A DNA stretch of 40,230 nucleotides from positions 1-40,230 of the IMG/VR virus record IMGVR_UViG_2563366875_000002. One strand, 5' to 3'. Shown piece by piece: positions 11,710 to 19,237 of this stretch. The notes beneath the pieces were generated by a model. The model was not told where the DNA came from. It searched no databases and worked only from the letters and a program-made list of their open reading frames with translations. Position 1 is the first letter of the stretch; every line of letters begins with the position of its first letter. Made by a program: the position numbers and the translations under genes. Source of the DNA: a virus (taxonomy: Duplodnaviria > Heunggongvirae > Uroviricota > Caudoviricetes).

Positions 11710-13041
11710 TTACTGGATGAATGACATTTGATTAATATATTTTATCAATAACTCTCTGGGTGTAGTACTCCAAAAATTTATGTGTTCATAATCAGTATAA
11801 ACATTTGTGAATTTTTTAAGTTCTTCATCACTTTTAGGGGCAAATCGCTCATTAAGAGTAATACTGTCTTTAATTATTCCGAAGAATACAATGGATATTT
11901 CAGGGATTTGCGATCTTCTCTCATAAGAATAAGGTATTTCTTTTATGTTAAGCAGGTCTGCTAAATAAGATATAGATTCAGCGGTAATTTCTTGTTTTAG
12001 TTTTTCCTTGTTACCAAAGCAATGTATGAAGGCAGCTACGACAAAGATCATATTTATTAAAGGATCACTGCTTTTGTTCTCATCGTCGTTTAACAGTTGA
12101 AAAATGTTAAGATTGCGTGAAAATGTTTGTGTTTCACGTAATGATAAGTTGGTTCGTTGAATTAAATCACGGATAAAGTAACCTGATAATCTATTGATTT
12201 TATTCAATAACCTTGTTTTTTCTACAAGGTAATCCCAATATATAACAGAGGCTTTACATACGTTGTGACCATTTATTAAACATGTATCTGGAAGCGTGAT
12301 GGTATATTTTATAAACTTGTCAAGATACTTTTGTGAGTTAATGCTATAACCATAAATATGATTTATAGATGCTTTTAATTGTTCTGTGTTTGTAACTAAA
12401 ATAAAAAAGACATTATTGATGTCAAAAATGTGTTTTATTGTTTCAATGACATTTGTTGAAAAACTCGGCTTACATCGGTCTAATTCATCAATTATAATTA
12501 CGATTTTTTGATTTTTTGATATGCTTTCGATGCAGGATTTAAGTGAATTTATGTTTTTCTCTGAGTCCATATGGTCTTCAAGCAAATTTTCAATAGTCCC
12601 ATCTATTGCTGCATTGCTTGCTTTCTTCATCGCATCTTGGAATTCTTCGGCAACTTCACTAGCCTCCTGTCGTAAAAACCAACCTGCACCAGCTTTTAGT
12701 ACCGTTTTTAAACCAAAGCGAATTGCAGGAAGAGATCTCTTAATGAAGTGTTGTTTTTCTTCCTCAGGCAAAATGCTGGCAATTGCAGAGGTTATGAGAA
12801 GTAATGGAGATTCTGCATGATCCCCTTTAAAGGCATCAATATAAACAACTTTAGATTCAGTTTCTTGCTCAATAATGAGATTTTTCAGTTTGATACTAAA
12901 TTCTGTTTTCCCTGTTCCCCATGCGCCGTCTATTACCAGTGGTGAAATGTCTGCCTCTGGTTTTAGCAACTTGATGATATTTTCAGCGATGTTTCTTCGT
13001 TGGAACTCGTCACGTTCAGTGAAAGATAGTGTATCTAACAT
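11710..13041 (-). CDS. KAP-family P-loop NTPase
   Basis: 443 aa; Walker A DGAWGTGKT (res 38-46), Walker B-like VIIIDELDRC; strongly AT-rich compared with flanking phage genes. Confidence 0.85.
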   Translation of the reverse strand: MLDTLSFTERDEFQRRNIAENIIKLLKPEADISPLVIDGAWGTGKTEFSIKLKNLIIEQETESKVVYIDAFKGDHAESPLLLITSAIASILPEEEKQHFIKRSLPAIRFGLKTVLKAGAGWFLRQEASEVAEEFQDAMKKASNAAIDGTIENLLEDHMDSEKNINSLKSCIESISKNQKIVIIIDELDRCKPSFSTNVIETIKHIFDINNVFFILVTNTEQLKASINHIYGYSINSQKYLDKFIKYTITLPDTCLINGHNVCKASVIYWDYLVEKTRLLNKINRLSGYFIRDLIQRTNLSLRETQTFSRNLNIFQLLNDDENKSSDPLINMIFVVAAFIHCFGNKEKLKQEITAESISYLADLLNIKEIPYSYERRSQIPEISIVFFGIIKDSITLNERFAPKSDEELKKFTNVYTDYEHINFWSTTPRELLIKYINQMSFIQ

Positions 13042-13655: not shown

Positions 13656-14708
13656 ATGAAAAATACTGTAAAAATAAACAGTGTTGATTTAATCAACGCT
13701 GATTGCCTGCATTTTATTCAGTCCCTGCCTGATGATTCCATTGACCTGATTGTTACCGATCCGCCTTACTTCAAGGTGAAACCCAACGGTTGGGACAATC
13801 AGTGGAAAGGGGACGAAGATTACCTTAAGTGGCTGGACCACTGTCTGGCCCAGTTCTGGCGGGTGTTGAAACCTGCCGGAAGCCTTTACCTGTTCTGTGG
13901 GCATCGCCTGGCATCTGATATTGAGATCATGATGCGTGAACGTTTCAACGTGCTTAACCATATCATCTGGGCGAAGCCGTCCGGACGTTGGAATGGGTGT
14001 AATAAAGAAAGTCTGCGCGCATATTTTCCTGCCACAGAGCGCGTTCTGTTTGCTGAACATTACCAGGGGCCATATCGCGGCAAAAGTGACGGCTATGCGG
14101 CAAAAGAAAGGGAACTCAAACAGCACATAATGGCACCGCTGATATCGTATTTCAGGGATGCTCGTGCCGAACTGGGTATAACGGCAAAACAAATTGCCGA
14201 AGCCACAGGTAAGAAAAATATGGTTTCCCACTGGTTTGGTGCCAGTCAGTGGCAGTTGCCGAATGAGGCTGACTATCGGAAGTTACAGGCACTGTTTTCC
14301 CGTATAGCGGCAGAGAAGTTTCAGGAACAACAACTGGAACAACCACACCACCAGCTGGTGGCATCTTATGATTCACTGAATCGCAAATATTCTGAATTGC
14401 TGGATGAGTTTAAATCTCTCCGGCGCTTTTTCTCCGTATCAGTCTCCGTGCCTTATACCGATGTCTGGACGCATAAGCCCGTTCAGTTCTACCCGGGTAA
14501 ACATCCGTGCGAGAAACCGGCGGATATGCTCCGGCAAATAATCAATGCCAGTAGTCGACCTGGTGATCTGGTTGCTGATTTCTTTATGGGATCCGGTTCC
14601 ACAATAAAAGCAGCAATGGCGCTGGGGCGTCGGGCGTTAGGTGTTGAACTTGAGTCAGAGCGGTTTAATCAGACGGTGAAAGAGGTAAGTGAACTGGTGG
14701 GGAAATAA
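13656..14708 (+). CDS. DNA N6-adenine methyltransferase (orphan, beta-class amino-MTase)
   Basis: 350 aa; motif IV DPPY (LIVTDPPYF) near N-terminus and motif I FFMGSGST near C-terminus; no adjacent restriction endonuclease. Confidence 0.88.
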   Translation: MKNTVKINSVDLINADCLHFIQSLPDDSIDLIVTDPPYFKVKPNGWDNQWKGDEDYLKWLDHCLAQFWRVLKPAGSLYLFCGHRLASDIEIMMRERFNVLNHIIWAKPSGRWNGCNKESLRAYFPATERVLFAEHYQGPYRGKSDGYAAKERELKQHIMAPLISYFRDARAELGITAKQIAEATGKKNMVSHWFGASQWQLPNEADYRKLQALFSRIAAEKFQEQQLEQPHHQLVASYDSLNRKYSELLDEFKSLRRFFSVSVSVPYTDVWTHKPVQFYPGKHPCEKPADMLRQIINASSRPGDLVADFFMGSGSTIKAAMALGRRALGVELESERFNQTVKEVSELVGK

Positions 14709-14715
14709 TTCTGGT

Positions 14716-14737
14716 GGCCACGTTGCGTGGCCTTTTT
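14716..14737 (+). terminator. rho-independent terminator after the methyltransferase
   Basis: 7 bp stem GGCCACG-TTG-CGTGGCC followed by TTTTTATTT. Confidence 0.55.
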
Positions 14738-14784
14738 ATTTCCAACACAGCACCCGCAAATATCGCGAGGTGAGAGATGACGAA

Positions 14785-15120
14785 ATGCCTCATAACCCAA
14801 ATACCTGGCCGGACTGGCTGGAGTTGTTTCAGAGCTGGTGGCGTGGAGACACACCGCTGGGTGCAGTGATTATGTCGATCGTTATGGCTGGTTTGCGCAT
14901 CGCCTATTTTGGCGGTGGTGGTGGCTGGAAGCGAAAAACGCTCGAGATTTTGCTATGTGGCGCTCTGACGCTGACCTTTGCATCCGCTCTTGAATATGTC
15001 GGATGGCCTAAATCGCTTTCTGTTGCCATTGGTGGTGGCGTGGGGCTGATCGGTGTCGATGCTATTCGTGGGGCTGCAATGCGAGTAATCGGTAACAAAT
15101 TTGGTAGCTCGAAGGAGTAA
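14785..15120 (+). CDS. holin (three predicted TM segments)
   Basis: internal ATG 14785 after GAGGTGAGAG and downstream of the terminator; three hydrophobic segments and charged C-terminus; immediately precedes endolysin. Confidence 0.72.
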   Translation: MPHNPNTWPDWLELFQSWWRGDTPLGAVIMSIVMAGLRIAYFGGGGGWKRKTLEILLCGALTLTFASALEYVGWPKSLSVAIGGGVGLIGVDAIRGAAMRVIGNKFGSSKE

Positions 15121-15123
15121 TTT

Positions 15124-15600
15124 ATGCAGGCACTAAATTCCCAGCGTAAAGCTTTCCTGGATATGGTGGCATGGTCAGAAGGAACGGATAACGGGCGACA
15201 ACCGACACGTAACCACGGTTATGATGTTATTGTTGGTGGCGAACTGTTCACTGATTACTCCGATCACCCTCGCAAACTTGTCACGCTAAACCCCAAACTC
15301 AAATCAACAGCTGCCGGACGTTACCAGCTTCTTTCACGCTGGTGGGATGCTTACCGTAAACAGCTTGGCCTGAAAGATTTTTCTCCAGAAAGCCAGGACG
15401 CTGTAGCTCTGCAGCAGATTAAAGAGCGTGGTGCTTTACCGATGATTGACCGCGGCAGTATTCGTCAGGCAATCGACCGTTGCAGCAATATCTGGGCGTC
15501 GTTACCTGGTGCAGGTTACGGTCAGTATGAACATAAAATCGGTGACCTGATTGCCCGATTTAAAAAAGCTGGTGGGGTAGTAAATGAAGCTGAGATATAA
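15124..15600 (+). CDS. endolysin (lambda R-like lytic transglycosylase)
   Basis: 158 aa; near-identical by memory to lambda R (NSQRKAFLDMVAWSEGTDNGRQ...). Confidence 0.93.
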   Translation: MQALNSQRKAFLDMVAWSEGTDNGRQPTRNHGYDVIVGGELFTDYSDHPRKLVTLNPKLKSTAAGRYQLLSRWWDAYRKQLGLKDFSPESQDAVALQQIKERGALPMIDRGSIRQAIDRCSNIWASLPGAGYGQYEHKIGDLIARFKKAGGVVNEAEI

Positions 15601-15976
15601 GCTGGTTATTGTTGCCTTCGTTGTTAGCGTCATTGGTTCCTTCATCTGGTCTGCTGGACATTACTACAGCAAATATCAGCACGAAAAGGAGCGTGCTGAT
15701 GAGGCTGTACGAAATGCTGAATCAGCAACTGCCATTACCCGTAACGTTCTGCAATCACTGCAAATCATCAATACAGTTATAGAGGCTAACCAGCATGCAA
15801 AACAGCAGATCGCACTGGAGTCACAGAGAACCCAGGAAGATATCAAAGTGGCTGTTGCGGATGATGATTGTGCTTCACGTCATGTGCCTGCTGCCGCTGC
15901 TGACCGGTTGCGGAAGTACGCGAACAGTTTACGTGCCGGTTCCGGCGGTACCGCTGCCAACAAGCCTGACCACTGA
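15584..15976 (+). CDS. i-spanin (Rz-like)
   Basis: N-terminal TM segment then coiled-coil-like region; follows endolysin; contains overlapping o-spanin frame. Confidence 0.72.
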   Translation: MKLRYKLVIVAFVVSVIGSFIWSAGHYYSKYQHEKERADEAVRNAESATAITRNVLQSLQIINTVIEANQHAKQQIALESQRTQEDIKVAVADDDCASRHVPAAAADRLRKYANSLRAGSGGTAANKPDH

Positions 15977-16118
15977 AACGCCCCAGCCAGTCATTCCCGA
16001 CCCGCTGACCTATGGGGCCAGTCTGGATCTGAATGTGAGCCTGCTTTCGGCGCTGGGCCAGTGCAACATCGACAAGGCCAGTATCAGGAAGATAGAAACG
16101 TCACGCAACTCACAGTAG
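15861..16118 (+). CDS. o-spanin (Rz1-like outer-membrane lipoprotein)
   Basis: lipobox LLTGC in signal peptide, proline-rich mature region; overlapped +1 frame relative to Rz. Confidence 0.68.
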   Translation: MMIVLHVMCLLPLLTGCGSTRTVYVPVPAVPLPTSLTTETPQPVIPDPLTYGASLDLNVSLLSALGQCNIDKASIRKIETSRNSQ

Positions 16119-16157
16119 CCATTACAAAGCTCATCTGCGGGTGGGCTTTGTAATGGC
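16118..16157. terminator. bidirectional stem-loop between lysis cassette and a convergent minus-strand gene
   Basis: perfect 13 bp inverted repeat GCCATTACAAAGC/GCTTTGTAATGGC with 14 nt loop, abutting both stop codons. Confidence 0.5.
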
Positions 16158-16463
16158 TTATTCGTAGTTGTCACCAGGGAAGTATTCCTGAAACTTTGAT
16201 TTTGGGAGCTGGGTTTTCGCGAAGTTCGCAAGCCTTCCTCTTGTAAGCATGTAGTCACACCCACCTTCTTGTTTGAGAAGGTCACCAGCTAATGTCCGAT
16301 ACACAACGTCACTTCGCAAAATTTCAATGGTGGAATTCCTGATGAGAAATGTTTCACACATCGGGCATCTAATTAACCAAGCGGTATCACGGTTCTGCCA
16401 GGTCGCATCTGAATTGCAAGCCGGGCAGCATTTCTGATCTTCTTGTCCTATGACCATTGTCAT
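16158..16463 (-). CDS. hypothetical zinc-ribbon protein (CxxC...CxxC)
   Basis: 101 aa; CPAC at res 12-15 and CPMC at res 33-36; opposite orientation to the flanking late genes. Confidence 0.5.
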   Translation of the reverse strand: MTMVIGQEDQKCCPACNSDATWQNRDTAWLIRCPMCETFLIRNSTIEILRSDVVYRTLAGDLLKQEGGCDYMLTRGRLANFAKTQLPKSKFQEYFPGDNYE

Positions 16464-16536
16464 GCTCTCGCATAGTGAAGGAATTTTCAGATTAACTCAT
16501 TTTCAGACGCATCGTAATGGCTTAAGGAAACAATTA

Positions 16537-16887
16537 ATGCCACCACGTACACCAAAAGCCTGCCGCGTTCGCGGTTGCCGCAATACCACTACTGACCCGT
16601 CAGGCTATTGCGAAAGCCACAAAAGCGAAGGCTGGAAGCAATACAAACCAGGCCTGTCACGTCATCAGCGCGGTTACGGTTCGAAGTGGGATACCATCCG
16701 TGAACGTGTGCTGAAGCGTGACAAAGGCCTGTGTCAGTTATGTCTGCGTGCCGGTGTGGTGCGTGAGGCGAAAACCGTTGACCACATTATCCCTAAGGCG
16801 CATGGCGGCACTGACGCTGACAGTAATCTGCAGAGCCTGTGCTGGCCATGTCATAAGGCGAAGACGGCCCGTGAACGGTTGAAGTAA
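16537..16887 (+). CDS. HNH endonuclease (packaging-associated)
   Basis: ATG 16537 after AAGGAAA; cysteine pairs and DHIIPKAHGGTDADSNLQSLCWPCH; immediately upstream of terminase small subunit. Confidence 0.85.
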   Translation: MPPRTPKACRVRGCRNTTTDPSGYCESHKSEGWKQYKPGLSRHQRGYGSKWDTIRERVLKRDKGLCQLCLRAGVVREAKTVDHIIPKAHGGTDADSNLQSLCWPCHKAKTARERLK

Positions 16888-17012: not shown

Positions 17013-17507
17013 ATGGCTGGAACGGCGGGGCGTTCCGGGCGTCGCCCCAAGCCAACGGCGCGCAAGGCGCTGGCCGGAAACCCCGGCAAGCGAGCCCTGA
17101 ATAAAGATGAACCTGTTTTTACGCCCATCAAAGGTGTTGAGCCACCGGAGTGGTTCGCTGAAGAAGATCTCCCTCTCGCCACGATCATGTGGCAACTGAC
17201 AACCAAAGAACTCTGCGGTCAGGGCCTGTTGTGCGTGACTGACCTCGCGGTGCTTGAGCGGTGGTGCGTGGCCTACGAGTTCTGGCGGCGTGCCGTGAAA
17301 AATATTGCCAGACAGGGCAACACCATCACCGGTGCAATGGGTGGCATGGTCAAAAATCCGGAGCTGACCGCCAAGAAAGAACAGGAGTCCGAGATGAGCA
17401 GCACGGGGGCAATGCTCGGACTCGACCCCAGCAGCCGCCAGCGTCTGATTGGCCTGGCGGGGCAGAAGAAAGCCACTAACCCGTTTCTGAAAATCATCGA
17501 ATCATGA
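17013..17507 (+). CDS. terminase small subunit
   Basis: about 165 aa basic N-terminus ([30 protein letters not shown]); directly precedes the large terminase with overlapping stop/start. Confidence 0.8.
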
Positions 17508-19237
17508 GCCGGAAATCTTACCCCAACGTAAATGCTGCCAATCAGTATGCCCGTGATGTCGTGCGCGGAAAGATTGTGGCCTGCCAGTTTGTGATTCAGG
17601 CCTGCCAGCGCCATCTTGATGACCTGATGGCGGAAAAAAGTAAGTCGTTTCGTTACCGCTTCGACAAGGACCTGGCTGAACGGGCCGCGAAATTTATTCA
17701 GCTGTTGCCACACACCAAGGGGGAGTGGGCATTCAAGAGGATGCCCATCACGCTGGAACCGTGGCAGCTCTTTGTGATCTGCTGTGCGTTTGGCTGGGTC
17801 AATAAAGGCTCCCGGCTGCGCCGCTTCAGGGAGGTGTATACCGAAATCCCCCGTAAGAACGGCAAATCGGCAATCTCTGCCGGTGTTGCCCTGTATTGTT
17901 TTGCCTGTGATAACGAGTTTGGCGCGGAAGTGTATTCCGGTGCCACGACAGAGAAACAGGCGTGGGAAGTCTTTCGCCCGGCGCGACTGATGTGTAAACG
18001 CACACCCATGCTGACGGAAGCGTTCGGGATTGAGGTTAACGCCTCAAACATGAACCGTCCGGAGGATGGCGCGCGGTTTGAACCGCTGATCGGTAACCCC
18101 GGTGATGGTTCATCACCCCACTGTGCCGTGGTGGATGAATATCACGAGCACGCCACCGATGCGCTTTATACCACGATGCTTACCGGGATGGGCGCGCGAC
18201 GTCAGCCACTGATGTGGGCCATCACCACCGCCGGGTACAACATTGAGGGGCCGTGCTACGACAAGCGGCGGGAAGTTATCGAGATGCTCAACGGTTCGGT
18301 ACCCAACGATGAACTGTTCGGGATCATCTATACCGTTGACGAAGGCGATGACTGGACCGACCCGCAGGTGCTGGAAAAAGCCAATCCAAATATTGGCGTG
18401 TCGGTTTATCGCGAATTTTTGTTAAGTCAGCAGCAGCGTGCGAAAAATAACGCCCGTCTGGCAAACGTCTTTAAAACAAAACACCTCAATATCTGGGTGT
18501 CGGCGCGTTCGGCGTATTTCAACCTGGTGAGCTGGCAGAGCTGCGAGGATAAATCACTGACCCTTGAGCAGTTCGAGGGGCAGCCGTGCATTCTGGCCTT
18601 TGACCTGGCGCGTAAGCTGGATATGAACAGCATGGCGCGACTTTATACCCGCGAGATTGACGGTAAAACGCATTACTACAGTGTGGCTCCGCGCTTCTGG
18701 GTACCGTATGACACGGTGTACAGCGTCGAGAAAAATGAAGATCGCCGGACAGCCGAACGCTTTCAGAAATGGGTGGAAATGGGCGTTCTGACCGTTACCG
18801 ATGGTGCGGAGGTGGATTATCGCTACATCCTCGAGGAGGCCAAAGCGGCGAACAAAATCAGCCCGGTCAGTGAGTCACCCATCGACCCCTTCGGGGCGAC
18901 CGGGTTGTCACATGACCTTGCTGATGAAGACCTGAATCCCGTCACTATCATTCAGAACTACACCAACATGTCCGACCCGATGAAAGAGCTGGAAGCGGCA
19001 ATTGAATCGGGGCGCTTTCATCATGATGGCAATCCCATCATGACCTGGTGTATCGGCAATGTGGTCGGCAAAACCATTCCGGGTAACGATGATGTGGTGA
19101 AACCCGTCAAAGAGCAGGCGGAAAACAAAATTGACGGTGCAGTTGCGCTGATTATGGCGGTTGGCAGAGCCATGCTGTACGAGAAAGAAGACACGCTGTC
19201 TGACCACATTGAGTCCTATGGGATCCGCTCGCTTTAA
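17504..19237 (+). CDS. terminase large subunit
   Basis: 577 aa; ATPase region (EIPRKNGKS Walker A-like, VVDEYHE Walker B-like) and C-terminal nuclease region. Confidence 0.93.

What the first reader, a model, noticed from the sequence alone, without database searches (positions are those of the whole stretch)
16118..16536. Oppositely oriented zinc-ribbon gene between lysis cassette and HNH/terminase
A 101 aa CxxC...CxxC protein is transcribed against the late operon and shares a 13 bp perfect hairpin with the end of the o-spanin gene. Its position and orientation mark it as cargo rather than a packaging component.
Basis: partly seen in the sequence, partly recalled or inferred. Interest (0 to 1): 0.4.

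Follow-up and report, generated by a model that had tools for sequence, protein, structure and literature searches.

The report
Reverse-oriented zinc-ribbon moron gene in prophage
A small, real but uncharacterised zinc-binding protein gene sits backwards between the lysis and DNA-packaging genes of an E. coli prophage; it is ordinary phage "cargo" of unknown function, placed next to a hairpin that marks a common gene-swapping point in lambda-like phages.

Summary
The 418 bp between the Rz1/LysC stop (16118) and the HNH start (16537) contain a perfect 13-bp-arm hairpin (16118-16157) and a minus-strand ORF (16158-16463). Its likely start is ATG 16457, giving 99 aa with CPAC...CPMC.

The ORF is a real gene. 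Relatives of 96-104 aa occur in E. coli, Shigella, Salmonella and Enterobacter prophages, and dN/dS is 0.08-0.14.

It is cargo:
- SfV has only 26 nt at this junction.
- Only 32 of 5,426 complete E. coli genomes carry the gene, although about 1,057 match the query spanning this junction, many through the HNH flank alone.
- Its GC content is 44%, against 56% in the flanks.
- About nine different packaging modules carry it, always antiparallel and always in the lysis-to-packaging interval. This is the slot that bor occupies in lambda.

The protein is an orphan. It has a Lar-like zinc ribbon that scores below the Pfam threshold, plus a helical domain found only in this family. No fold match was found.

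The hairpin is not specific to this gene. It occurs in about 25% of E. coli genomes and in HK97, and it marks a sharp mosaic boundary.

Function is inferred only. The most likely reading is an independently expressed accessory (moron) protein acting in phage-host or phage-phage conflict. No promoter could be shown. Verdict: new member of a known kind, of modest interest.

The parts
15795..16118 (+). Rz1/LysC o-spanin gene, the last gene of the lysis cassette. Its stop codon TAG (16116-16118) overlaps the first base of the hairpin.
   Evidence: Pfam LysC E 3.6e-18 and PHROG Rz-like spanin. PGAP annotates lysC at the same coordinates in identical E. coli loci.
16118..16157 (.). Hairpin with perfect 13-bp arms (16118-16130 and 16145-16157) and a 14-nt loop, wedged exactly between two convergent stop codons. 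It is a copy of a widespread lambdoid boundary hairpin.
   Evidence: Fold z-scores of -6.7 and -9.2. Flanking sequence diverges on both sides at the stem base. Orientation is fixed relative to the main coding strand, 98 to 5. The inner stem covaries among loci that carry the gene.
16158..16457 (-). Coding sequence of the 99-aa zinc-ribbon protein (11.4 kDa, pI 5.4, no membrane segment). An alternative in-frame ATG at 16463 gives 101 aa. The stop codon is at 16158-16160.
   Evidence: ORF list. 16 family representatives of 96-104 aa. dN/dS 0.075-0.14. AlphaFold2 pLDDT 85.3, showing a four-strand ribbon followed by four helices. Protein properties.
16458..16524 (-). 5' leader and putative promoter region of the cassette. 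It holds a GAGAG Shine-Dalgarno sequence (16465-16469), a weak -10-like TAATCT (16489-16494) and a -35-like TTACGA (16512-16517) with a 17-nt spacer. GC content is 36%.
   Evidence: About 65 nt are conserved upstream of the ATG in the window, L007, L010 and L024, although the neighbouring genes are unrelated. The hexamers match only 6 of 12 consensus positions and the scan tool did not call a promoter, so promoter function is inferred.
16150..16160 (+). First copy of the 11-bp direct repeat GTAATGGCTTA. It comprises the end of the hairpin's right arm plus the reverse-strand stop codon.
   Evidence: Exact match positions; an 11-bp repeat arose in 19 of 1,000 shuffles of the region.
16514..16524 (+). 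Second copy of GTAATGGCTTA, at the far (5') boundary of the cassette. Together with the first copy it brackets a 364-bp unit.
   Evidence: The same arrangement is seen in L007, L010 and L024. Right-arm copies are enriched downstream of hairpins in general: 26 downstream against 2 upstream in 58 dereplicated loci.
16537..16887 (+). HNH endonuclease gene, the first gene of the packaging module. It is head-to-head with the zinc-ribbon gene, with 79 nt between the two start codons.
   Evidence: Pfam HNH E 3.6e-16. Its start is as in SfV orf53 and in PGAP annotation.

Best explanation
The Rz1-HNH spacer holds two things.

(1) A copy of a widespread lambdoid 'boundary hairpin'. It sits directly after the last lysis-region gene and marks the point where cargo is exchanged between phages.

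(2) Immediately behind it, a self-contained, horizontally mobile moron cassette of about 365 bp (16158-16524) on the reverse strand. It encodes a 99-aa cytoplasmic protein with an N-terminal C4 zinc ribbon of the Lar type and a C-terminal four-helix domain unique to this family.

Shown:
- The gene is real and under purifying selection.
- It is absent from most sister phages.
- It differs in base composition from its flanks.
- It has moved between at least about nine non-homologous packaging backbones while always keeping the same slot (lysis-to-packaging interval) and the same antiparallel orientation. This is the arrangement of bor in lambda.

Inferred:
- It is transcribed from its own weak promoter in the conserved AT-rich 5' region, independently of the Q-dependent late operon. 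That would mean expression in the lysogen and/or right after DNA entry, with the transcript ending at or stabilised by the hairpin.
- The protein works by binding a macromolecular partner through the invariant ribbon face (CPxC-S-A-W-N ... CxxCE).
- This serves a phage-host or phage-phage conflict function, such as exclusion of or defence against other phages, or modulation of a host nuclease or restriction function. It does not serve virion assembly.

My confidence that it is a genuine accessory (moron) gene is about 0.9. My confidence in the conflict-related binding mechanism is about 0.35. The figure given is for the whole statement.
For: - Real gene: the ORF has conserved length and motifs in 16 representatives, and dN/dS is 0.075-0.14.
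- Present or absent at one junction: SfV and 720R4 are empty, and other relatives hold different cargo. Only 32 of 5,426 E. coli genomes hold the cassette, against about 1,057 that match the query spanning the junction, many through the HNH flank alone.
- Composition: GC is 44% in the cassette against 56% in the flanks.
- Conserved position and orientation: the gene is antiparallel and lies between the lysis and packaging genes in every context seen. These are P27-TerS/HNH (window), 200-aa TerS with Mu-F, Terminase_2, ParB_N, and lambda-type Nu1/GpA.
- Lambda bor occupies the same slot in the same orientation.
- About 65 nt of 5' non-coding sequence and the 3' hairpin travel with the gene.
- The zinc ribbon is Lar-like: all 16 members have PF14354 as their most consistent hit, with best E 1.4e-5, and hhalign against Rac RalR gives E 4e-4.
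- The model is confident: pLDDT 85.3.
- The family is restricted to prophages. It is absent from 50,697 isolated phage genomes, and from plasmids apart from one hit on a 1.3-Mb record that I read as a misassigned chromosome.
- The same prophage carries another reverse-oriented defence-type cargo gene, PDC-S20.
Against: - No sigma-70 promoter near consensus was found upstream of the gene in the window or in three other loci. Expression is therefore unproven.
- The hairpin lacks a U-tract on the gene's strand, so it is not a canonical terminator.
- There is no match to any defence-system model (PADLOC) or NCBIfam model.
- The Lar similarity is below threshold and limited to the ribbon.
- RefSeq/PGAP does not call the gene.
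- Nothing identifies the binding partner.
Confidence: 0.55

Rival explanations
1. It is a functional Lar/RalR-type protein. It would be either a restriction-alleviation factor made early from a constitutive promoter to protect incoming phage DNA, or a RalR-like DNA-damaging toxin used for abortive infection or addiction.
For: - PF14354 (Lar_restr_allev) is the most consistent Pfam hit for all 16 family members.
- hhalign against Rac RalR aligns KpCPxC...CxxCE[ST] with E 4e-4.
- Some members carry a precomputed PF14354 label.
- In cos-type members the gene lies within about 0.1-0.5 kb of the genome's right end. From prior knowledge of lambda, that end is packaged last and injected first.
- Neighbours include a DndB-like gene in L034, and the window prophage carries an orphan-type methyltransferase.
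Against: - The window protein scores 17.6 bits against a gathering score of 28.6, and only profile positions 4-33 of 58 align.
- The Lar C-terminal helix (ALERWNKR in RalR) has no counterpart.
- hhalign probability is only 35%.
- The family is absent from virulent phages, and from plasmids apart from one hit on a 1.3-Mb record that I read as a misassigned chromosome. Anti-restriction genes are common in both.
- No antitoxin partner or antisense small RNA is evident.
- A constitutively made DNase would be toxic to the lysogen.
Confidence: 0.18
2. It serves the phage's own late or packaging region. The protein, or simply the convergent transcription plus the hairpin, would insulate the terminase and HNH genes from leaky late transcription in the lysogen, or would tune the expression ratio of lysis and packaging genes.
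For: - In every locus the gene's 5' end faces the first packaging gene at 80-430 bp (one small ORF intervenes in L007, L017 and L026), even though the packaging modules are non-homologous. Variable extra cargo accumulates only on its 3' (hairpin) side.
- The hairpin folds better on the late-operon strand, -31.6 against -22.7 kcal/mol.
- The hairpin has a fixed orientation relative to the late genes.
- Precedent: the P22 ant moron influences read-through into the tailspike gene (PMC2629481).
Against: - About 97% of related junctions lack the gene and those phages are viable; examples are SfV and HK97.
- An insulator would not need a protein under strong purifying selection.
- The partner packaging proteins are unrelated to one another, which argues against a specific protein-protein interaction.
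Confidence: 0.12
3. It is a chance or decaying ORF in a non-coding spacer, which would explain why RefSeq/PGAP does not call a gene there.
For: PGAP leaves the region unannotated in identical E. coli loci. No curated family exists. Frameshifted and truncated copies are found, namely P0006, P0017, P0018 and P0020.
Against: dN/dS is 0.075-0.14 at dS up to 1.6. Length is conserved at 96-104 aa and 18 columns are invariant down to 40% identity. One exact 99-aa variant (P0010) is recorded on at least 1,000 contigs, the counting cap. The AlphaFold2 model is confident.
Confidence: 0.03

Closest known systems
Lambda bor (and borD of DLP12): a lysogen-expressed moron between Rz/Rz1 and cos/terminase
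   Same: It has the same slot and the same reverse orientation. Lambda bor starts its reverse-strand ORF 31 nt after Rz, and here the ORF ends 39 nt after Rz1. It is similar in size (97 aa against 99 aa). It is dispensable for lytic growth and is present or absent among relatives.
   Different: Bor is an outer-membrane lipoprotein with a signal peptide. This protein has no hydrophobic segment and no Bor or any other Pfam match above threshold, and it is built on a zinc ribbon. The two share no sequence or fold relationship.
Lar/RalR of the Rac prophage (Pfam PF14354). It has been described as a restriction-alleviation protein and as the DNase toxin of the RalR/RalA type I toxin-antitoxin pair (PMC4041452).
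   Same: Both are small prophage proteins with an N-terminal C4 zinc ribbon of closely similar knuckle pattern (K-x-CPxC ... C-x-x-CE[ST]). PF14354 is the most consistent hit for all 16 family members.
   Different: The match is below the gathering score and covers only the ribbon. The Lar C-terminal W-N-x-R helix is absent. A 60-aa helical domain found nowhere else is added. The genomic position differs (early recET region in Rac), and no antisense small-RNA partner is evident.
Morons as defined for HK97/HK022 and P22-like phages, for example HK97 gp15 and the P22 'ant moron' (PMC2629481)
   Same: It is an independently organised gene inserted into the late operon when related phages are compared. 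It has atypical base composition and is flanked by a hairpin. The locus shows high genetic flux.
   Different: No convincing sigma-70 promoter could be identified, and the 'terminator' is a pre-existing backbone element. The function is unknown, whereas gp15 and SieA are membrane-associated exclusion proteins.
Boundary or linker sequences at module joints of lambdoid phages (a concept from HK620 and lambdoid comparative genomics; recalled from prior knowledge, not retrieved here)
   Same: The 40-nt hairpin is a short conserved island with unrelated sequence on both sides. It recurs at one type of joint in many lambdoid phages.
   Different: It is a specific structured palindrome that abuts stop codons. 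Inserts behind it are often bracketed by direct repeats of its right arm. To my knowledge this has not been described, and no paper containing its sequence was found.

Membership tests
Moron (accessory gene inserted in a phage operon) | Present in some and absent from other otherwise syntenic, related phages at the same junction | tested here: met
   SfV and 720R4 have 26 nt between Rz1 and HNH, and other relatives hold different genes. 32 genomes hold the cassette, against about 1,057 that match the query spanning the junction.
Moron (accessory gene inserted in a phage operon) | Own promoter upstream and terminator downstream, giving expression independent of the host operon | tested here: inconclusive
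   A conserved 5' non-coding block travels with the gene, but only weak hexamers are present (TTACGA-17-TAATCT) and no promoter was called. A stable hairpin follows the stop codon but has no U-tract on that strand.
Moron (accessory gene inserted in a phage operon) | Base composition different from the surrounding genes | tested here: met
   GC is 0.44 for the cassette (0.36 in its leader), against 0.56 for Rz1 and 0.56 for HNH.
Moron (accessory gene inserted in a phage operon) | Expressed from the repressed prophage | not testable with these tools
   This needs transcript mapping in a lysogen.
Lar/RalR family (Pfam PF14354 Lar_restr_allev) | Score at or above the Pfam gathering threshold (28.6 bits) | tested here: not met
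   The window protein scores 17.6 bits (E 0.0046). The best family member has E 1.4e-5. All 16 match below or near the threshold. RalR itself scores 53.5 bits.
Lar/RalR family (Pfam PF14354 Lar_restr_allev) | C4 zinc ribbon with CPxC ... CxxCE[ST] knuckles | tested here: met
   hhalign of alignment A4 against RalR aligns 30 columns across both knuckles, with E 4e-4 and probability 35%.
Lar/RalR family (Pfam PF14354 Lar_restr_allev) | C-terminal helix of the domain (profile positions about 34-58; ...EALERWNKR in RalR) | tested here: not met
   Only profile positions 4-33 of 58 align. No W-N-x-R motif follows the ribbon.
Lar/RalR family (Pfam PF14354 Lar_restr_allev) | Restriction alleviation or DNase activity | not testable with these tools
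   This needs plating assays and biochemistry.
Bor lipoprotein family | Signal peptide or lipobox and Bor domain | tested here: not met
   There is no Pfam Bor hit. The maximum 19-residue hydropathy is 0.63, so there is no membrane or signal segment. Only the slot and orientation are shared.
IS1 InsA-like (zinc ribbon plus helix-turn-helix repressor that binds terminal inverted repeats) | Sequence or profile similarity to InsA | tested here: not met
Intrinsic (Rho-independent) terminator, for the hairpin | GC-rich stem followed by a U-tract | tested here: not met
   The stem is present and very stable. However, the scan calls no terminator at 16118-16157 on either strand. The tails are UACUGUGA on the gene strand and UUAUUCGU on the late strand.
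Known anti-phage defence systems (PADLOC-DB) | Match to a defence-protein model | tested here: not met
   The only hit is LmuB at E 0.054 over a short stretch.

The most novel reading that the evidence does not exclude
The conserved 40-nt hairpin may be the recognition or exchange site of a previously undescribed cassette-swapping mechanism in lambdoid phages. Cargo units such as this zinc-ribbon gene would be inserted precisely at the end of the hairpin's right arm and become bracketed by direct repeats of that arm (here GTAATGGCTTA twice, 364 bp apart). That would make the lysis-packaging junction an integron-like moron acquisition site, not merely a tolerated gap. The zinc-ribbon protein would then be one of many exchangeable conflict effectors.
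Probability: 0.1. Interest if true: 0.7.

Novelty: new member of a known kind. Interest (0 to 1): 0.3.

Why it matters
- The gene is real and conserved, and one exact 99-aa variant alone is recorded on at least 1,000 public contigs. Yet RefSeq annotation omits it and no curated family covers it, so adding it would correct a systematic annotation gap.
- Its fixed slot and orientation across unrelated packaging modules make it a clean candidate for functional screens of prophage-encoded exclusion, defence or anti-restriction factors.
- The hairpin next to it is present in a quarter of E. coli genomes and in model phages such as HK97. It gives a nucleotide-precise landmark for where lambdoid phages exchange cargo. 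This is useful for finding morons and for understanding mosaicism.
- None of this is surprising in kind. Reverse-oriented morons at this junction have been known since lambda bor.

Tried and rejected
Function and family searches:
- Known function by sequence. Pfam, PHROGs, NCBIfam and PADLOC gave only sub-threshold zinc-ribbon hits.
- Remote homologues. An exhaustive HMMER search of 1.84 billion representatives found only the family itself plus one 869-aa repeat protein, P0009, that shares a C-terminal motif. With the deeper profile that link is weak (hhalign probability 11%). P0009's HTH_32 hit is below threshold.
- C-terminal domain alone. This search found no other domain architectures.
- IS1 InsA-like idea (zinc ribbon plus helix-turn-helix, with terminal inverted repeats GCCATTAC...GTAATGGC). 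Rejected by hhalign.
- PDB profile search. The only hit was the LysW ribbon at E 0.27.

RNA and hairpin checks:
- Known RNA family for the hairpin. Rfam gave no credible hit.
- Integron attC analogy. The GTTRRRY core is not conserved across loci and there is no integrase nearby, so this was rejected as membership.
- Literature search for the hairpin sequence. Only unrelated primer matches were found.

Insertion-site and distribution checks:
- Target-site-duplication test. A synthetic 'empty site' (hairpin joined directly to the HNH leader) found only the 32 occupied sites in E. coli genomes. A precise insertion event could therefore not be demonstrated.
- GTDB genome scan for relatives. No confirmed locus was returned.
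- Plasmid and isolated-phage searches for the protein. There were no genuine hits.
Full report
**Context**

The window is an SfV/HK97-like lambdoid prophage of E. coli. Around the finding the plus-strand late region reads:
- holin, 14689-15120
- endolysin, 15124-15600
- Rz, 15584-15976
- Rz1/LysC, 15795-16118
- HNH endonuclease, 16537-16887
- P27-type small terminase, ending at 17507
- large terminase, 17504-19237

These assignments come, and PGAP annotates identical E. coli loci the same way. The finding's coordinates (16118-16536) are exactly the 418-bp spacer between the Rz1 stop and the HNH start.

**Check of the observation**

- The minus-strand ORF 16158-16463 exists (101 aa).
- Every homologue starts MVIGQ and is 96-104 aa long. 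A GAGAG Shine-Dalgarno sequence lies 7 nt before the second ATG. The likely start is therefore 16457, giving 99 aa.
- The two CxxC knuckles are CPAC and CPMCE.
- The hairpin has perfect 13-bp arms (16118-16130 and 16145-16157) and a 14-nt loop. It is wedged between the two convergent stop codons and shares one base with the Rz1 TAG.
- As RNA it is much more stable than shuffled sequence: z = -6.7 on the gene strand and -9.2 on the late strand, where G-U pairs extend the stem to 19 bp.

**The ORF is a gene**

- Searches of 5.8 billion clustered proteins and of 1.84 billion representatives recovered a small closed family of 16 representatives, 40-91% identical, all 96-104 aa.
- The family occurs in E. 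coli, Shigella, Salmonella and several Enterobacter species. One exact 99-aa variant is recorded on at least 1,000 contigs, the counting cap.
- Pairwise dN/dS is 0.075-0.14 at dS of 0.6-1.6.
- Eighteen columns are invariant, including both knuckles and S16, A18, W20, N22 and E35.
- AlphaFold2 with the 16-sequence alignment gives pLDDT 85.3 and pTM 0.69. The model is a four-stranded ribbon (residues 6-40) followed by four helices (41-92).
- The protein is 11.4 kDa, has pI 5.4 and has no hydrophobic segment.
- RefSeq/PGAP leaves the locus unannotated, although GenBank submissions call it a hypothetical protein.

**The gene is cargo**

- SfV and vB_EcoM-720R4 have only 26 nt between Rz1 and HNH.
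- Other relatives carry unrelated genes at this junction. 689R6 has a 507-nt plus-strand gene, 118970_sal3 has three small genes, and ETEC strains have a GrlR-family regulator.
- Of 5,426 complete E. coli genomes, about 1,057 match the query spanning this junction, many through the HNH flank alone. Only 32 carry the cassette, all at 99% identity or more.
- The cassette is AT-richer (GC 0.44, and 0.36 in its leader) than Rz1 and HNH (0.56 each).
- Homologues sit in phages with non-homologous packaging modules. These include a 200-aa TerS with a Mu-F-type head, Terminase_2, ParB_N-led modules and lambda-type Nu1/GpA.
- In every case the gene is antiparallel to the late genes and lies between the lysis and packaging genes. 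Its 5' end faces the first packaging gene at 80-430 bp, with one small ORF intervening in three loci. Extra cargo such as Rha, DndB-like genes and small ORFs accumulates on its 3' side.
- Lambda bor has the same slot and orientation.
- The family was not found in 50,697 isolated phage genomes, nor in plasmids apart from one hit on a 1.3-Mb record that I read as a misassigned chromosome.

**What travels with the gene**

- About 65 nt of 5' non-coding sequence is conserved between the window, L007, L010 and L024, although the neighbouring genes are unrelated. The Enterobacter clade has its own conserved block, CCAATAACTACACTT.
- The best hexamers in the window clade are TTACGA-17 nt-TAATCT, which match only 6 of 12 consensus positions.
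- The scan tool called no promoter upstream of the gene in four loci. An own promoter is therefore plausible but not shown.
- Downstream, a hairpin follows the stop codon in nearly all loci. Its outer stem (CATTA/TAATG) is conserved. Its inner stem covaries: AAAGC/GCTTT, GAAGCYC/GRGCTTC and CAGGCA/TGCCTG.

**The hairpin is a general lambdoid element**

- A 51-nt query centred on the hairpin matches 1,356 of 5,426 E. coli genomes, with up to six places per genome.
- A related query, the common hairpin version plus its downstream conserved block, matches 176 isolated phages. These include HK97, epsilon34, Sf101, Stx phages and P22-like phages.
- In HK97 the hairpin lies between a KilA-N-associated gene and the HNH gene gp74, next to a gap of about 400 nt with no annotation.
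- In 119 IMG/VR instances the flanks diverge exactly at the stem base on both sides. There are more than 45 different right-hand continuations and 52 different left-hand 24-mers. Often a plus-strand stop codon directly abuts the stem.
- Its orientation relative to the main coding strand is fixed, 98 to 5.
- Only 3 of 110 instances with enough downstream sequence have the zinc-ribbon gene behind them.
- The hairpin is therefore a sharp mosaic boundary of the lysis-packaging interval. The zinc-ribbon cassette is one of many things found behind it.
- It is not a canonical intrinsic terminator on either strand and matches no Rfam family.
- No paper containing its sequence was found.

**Direct repeats around the cassette**

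- In the window the cassette is bracketed by an 11-bp direct repeat, GTAATGGCTTA (16150-16160 and 16514-16524). The first copy is the end of the hairpin's right arm plus the stop codon. A repeat this long arose in 19 of 1,000 shuffles.
- Across 58 dereplicated hairpin loci, copies of the right-arm 12-mer with up to 2 mismatches occur 26 times in 122 kb downstream. They occur twice in 109 kb upstream and three times on the reverse strand on each side.
- These include a family of 196-610-bp inserts joined as GATAATG|AAACCG...GA(C/T)AATGGCTTA|TACCCTACACGGG.
- The simplest reading is repeated homologous or microhomology-mediated exchange at the hairpin.
- A dedicated site-specific mechanism is not excluded, but no recombinase is associated.
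- An exact empty site for the window's junction was not found.

**What the protein does**

- Curated libraries give only sub-threshold zinc-ribbon matches. The most consistent is PF14354 (Lar_restr_allev). All 16 members match it, with best E 1.4e-5. The window protein scores 17.6 bits against a threshold of 28.6, and only profile positions 4-33 of 58 align.
- hhalign against Rac RalR/Lar aligns both knuckles (E 4e-4, probability 35%). RalR's C-terminal helix has no counterpart.
- RalR has been described both as a restriction-alleviation factor and as the DNase toxin of a type I toxin-antitoxin pair (PMC4041452). Neither activity can be transferred on this evidence.
- The C-terminal helical domain occurs only in this family. 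A weak motif resemblance to repeats of one 869-aa protein did not hold with the deeper profile.
- PADLOC and NCBIfam gave nothing.
- An InsA-like architecture was tested and rejected.

**Most likely mechanism**

The gene is an autonomous accessory (moron) gene. I infer that it is expressed independently of the Q-dependent late operon, in the lysogen and/or immediately after DNA entry. I also infer that its product binds a macromolecular partner through the invariant ribbon face and serves phage-phage or phage-host conflict rather than virion assembly.

- Identity as a genuine mobile accessory gene is well supported (about 0.9).
- The conflict-related binding mechanism is inference (about 0.35).

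The rivals are:
- a true Lar/RalR-like anti-restriction or toxin function (about 0.18);
- an insulating or regulatory role for the adjacent packaging genes, suggested by the invariant head-to-head arrangement (about 0.12);
- a non-functional ORF (about 0.03), which is effectively refuted.

**Verdict**

- The 'cargo' interpretation is supported.
- The hairpin is reinterpreted as a widespread boundary element.
- Novelty: new member of a known kind, namely a bor-position moron encoding an orphan zinc-ribbon protein. Interest is modest.
- The more interesting by-product is the hairpin as a nucleotide-precise cargo-exchange landmark in lambdoid phages.

Noticed in passing
window 11710-13041 (-): A 443-aa KAP/PifA-like NTPase matches the PADLOC candidate defence gene PDC-S20 (E 4.5e-177). 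GC is only 0.33 and the gene is reverse-oriented relative to the late region. This is a second cargo island in the same prophage.
   Followed up: no
window 13656-14708 (+): A 350-aa type II-like N6/N4 DNA methyltransferase lies just upstream of the holin, with no partner restriction gene seen nearby. It is probably an orphan, phage-protective methylase. A homologous methyltransferase sits at the same place in locus L033.
   Followed up: no
window 16118-16157; loci L027, L028, L030, L031, L037-L155, L157: The hairpin is a widespread lambdoid element, present in 1,356 of 5,426 E. coli genomes, in HK97, in Stx phages and in P22-like phages. Unrelated sequence lies on both sides exactly at the stem base, the orientation is fixed, and a plus-strand stop codon often abuts it.
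   Followed up: yes
L027 2780-3010 and about 34 IMG/VR loci (e.g. L045, L087, L049); HK97 38659-38954: The commonest alternative occupant behind the hairpin is an insert of about 200-600 bp. It starts GATAATG|AAACCGG and ends at a second copy of AATGGCTTA. It carries a conserved reverse-strand 47-aa ORF (MSFHQSATTKNLFCHKAGGSSFSGCQCYFPTYWLGLFRGTAVTGCPE). Whether this is a gene was not tested.
   Followed up: no
L001 3019-3438 and L002 1519-1938 (RefSeq E. coli loci identical to window 16118-16537): RefSeq/PGAP annotates no gene in this spacer, although GenBank submissions of the same strains list a 99/101-aa hypothetical protein. This is a systematic annotation gap for the family.
   Followed up: partly
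P0009 (869 aa, metagenomic): This protein has at least six tandem repeats of about 48 aa (…LxEIAExxxxETGIxVSxSKVxxxAKEKLxxEEYQxRFP…). The repeats resemble the C-terminal 40 residues of the zinc-ribbon family and score just under the Pfam HTH_32 threshold. The link weakened with a deeper profile.
   Followed up: partly
L029 1174-1494 (E. coli ETEC L5_E1779) and H63: A GrlR-family regulatory protein gene occupies the same Rz1-HNH slot in the plus orientation in some ETEC strains. A virulence-regulator homologue is thus carried as phage cargo.
   Followed up: no
window 15731, 16118, 16150(-), 16514(-), 30756, 34965: The octamer GCCATTAC occurs 6 times in the window against 1.5 expected, and no shuffle out of 100 reached 6. 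Three of the copies belong to the hairpin and cassette boundary and one lies inside Rz.
   Followed up: partly
L034 5383-6522 (-): In one relative the zinc-ribbon gene is followed by a 379-aa DndB-family gene inside the lysis-packaging interval. This is a possible phage-borne modulator of DNA phosphorothioation systems.
   Followed up: no
L001 2485-2754 (E. coli CFSAN061770): The Rz (DUF2570) gene of the otherwise identical prophage is flagged by PGAP as a truncated pseudogene in this strain, so some carriers of the cassette may be lysis-defective.
   Followed up: no
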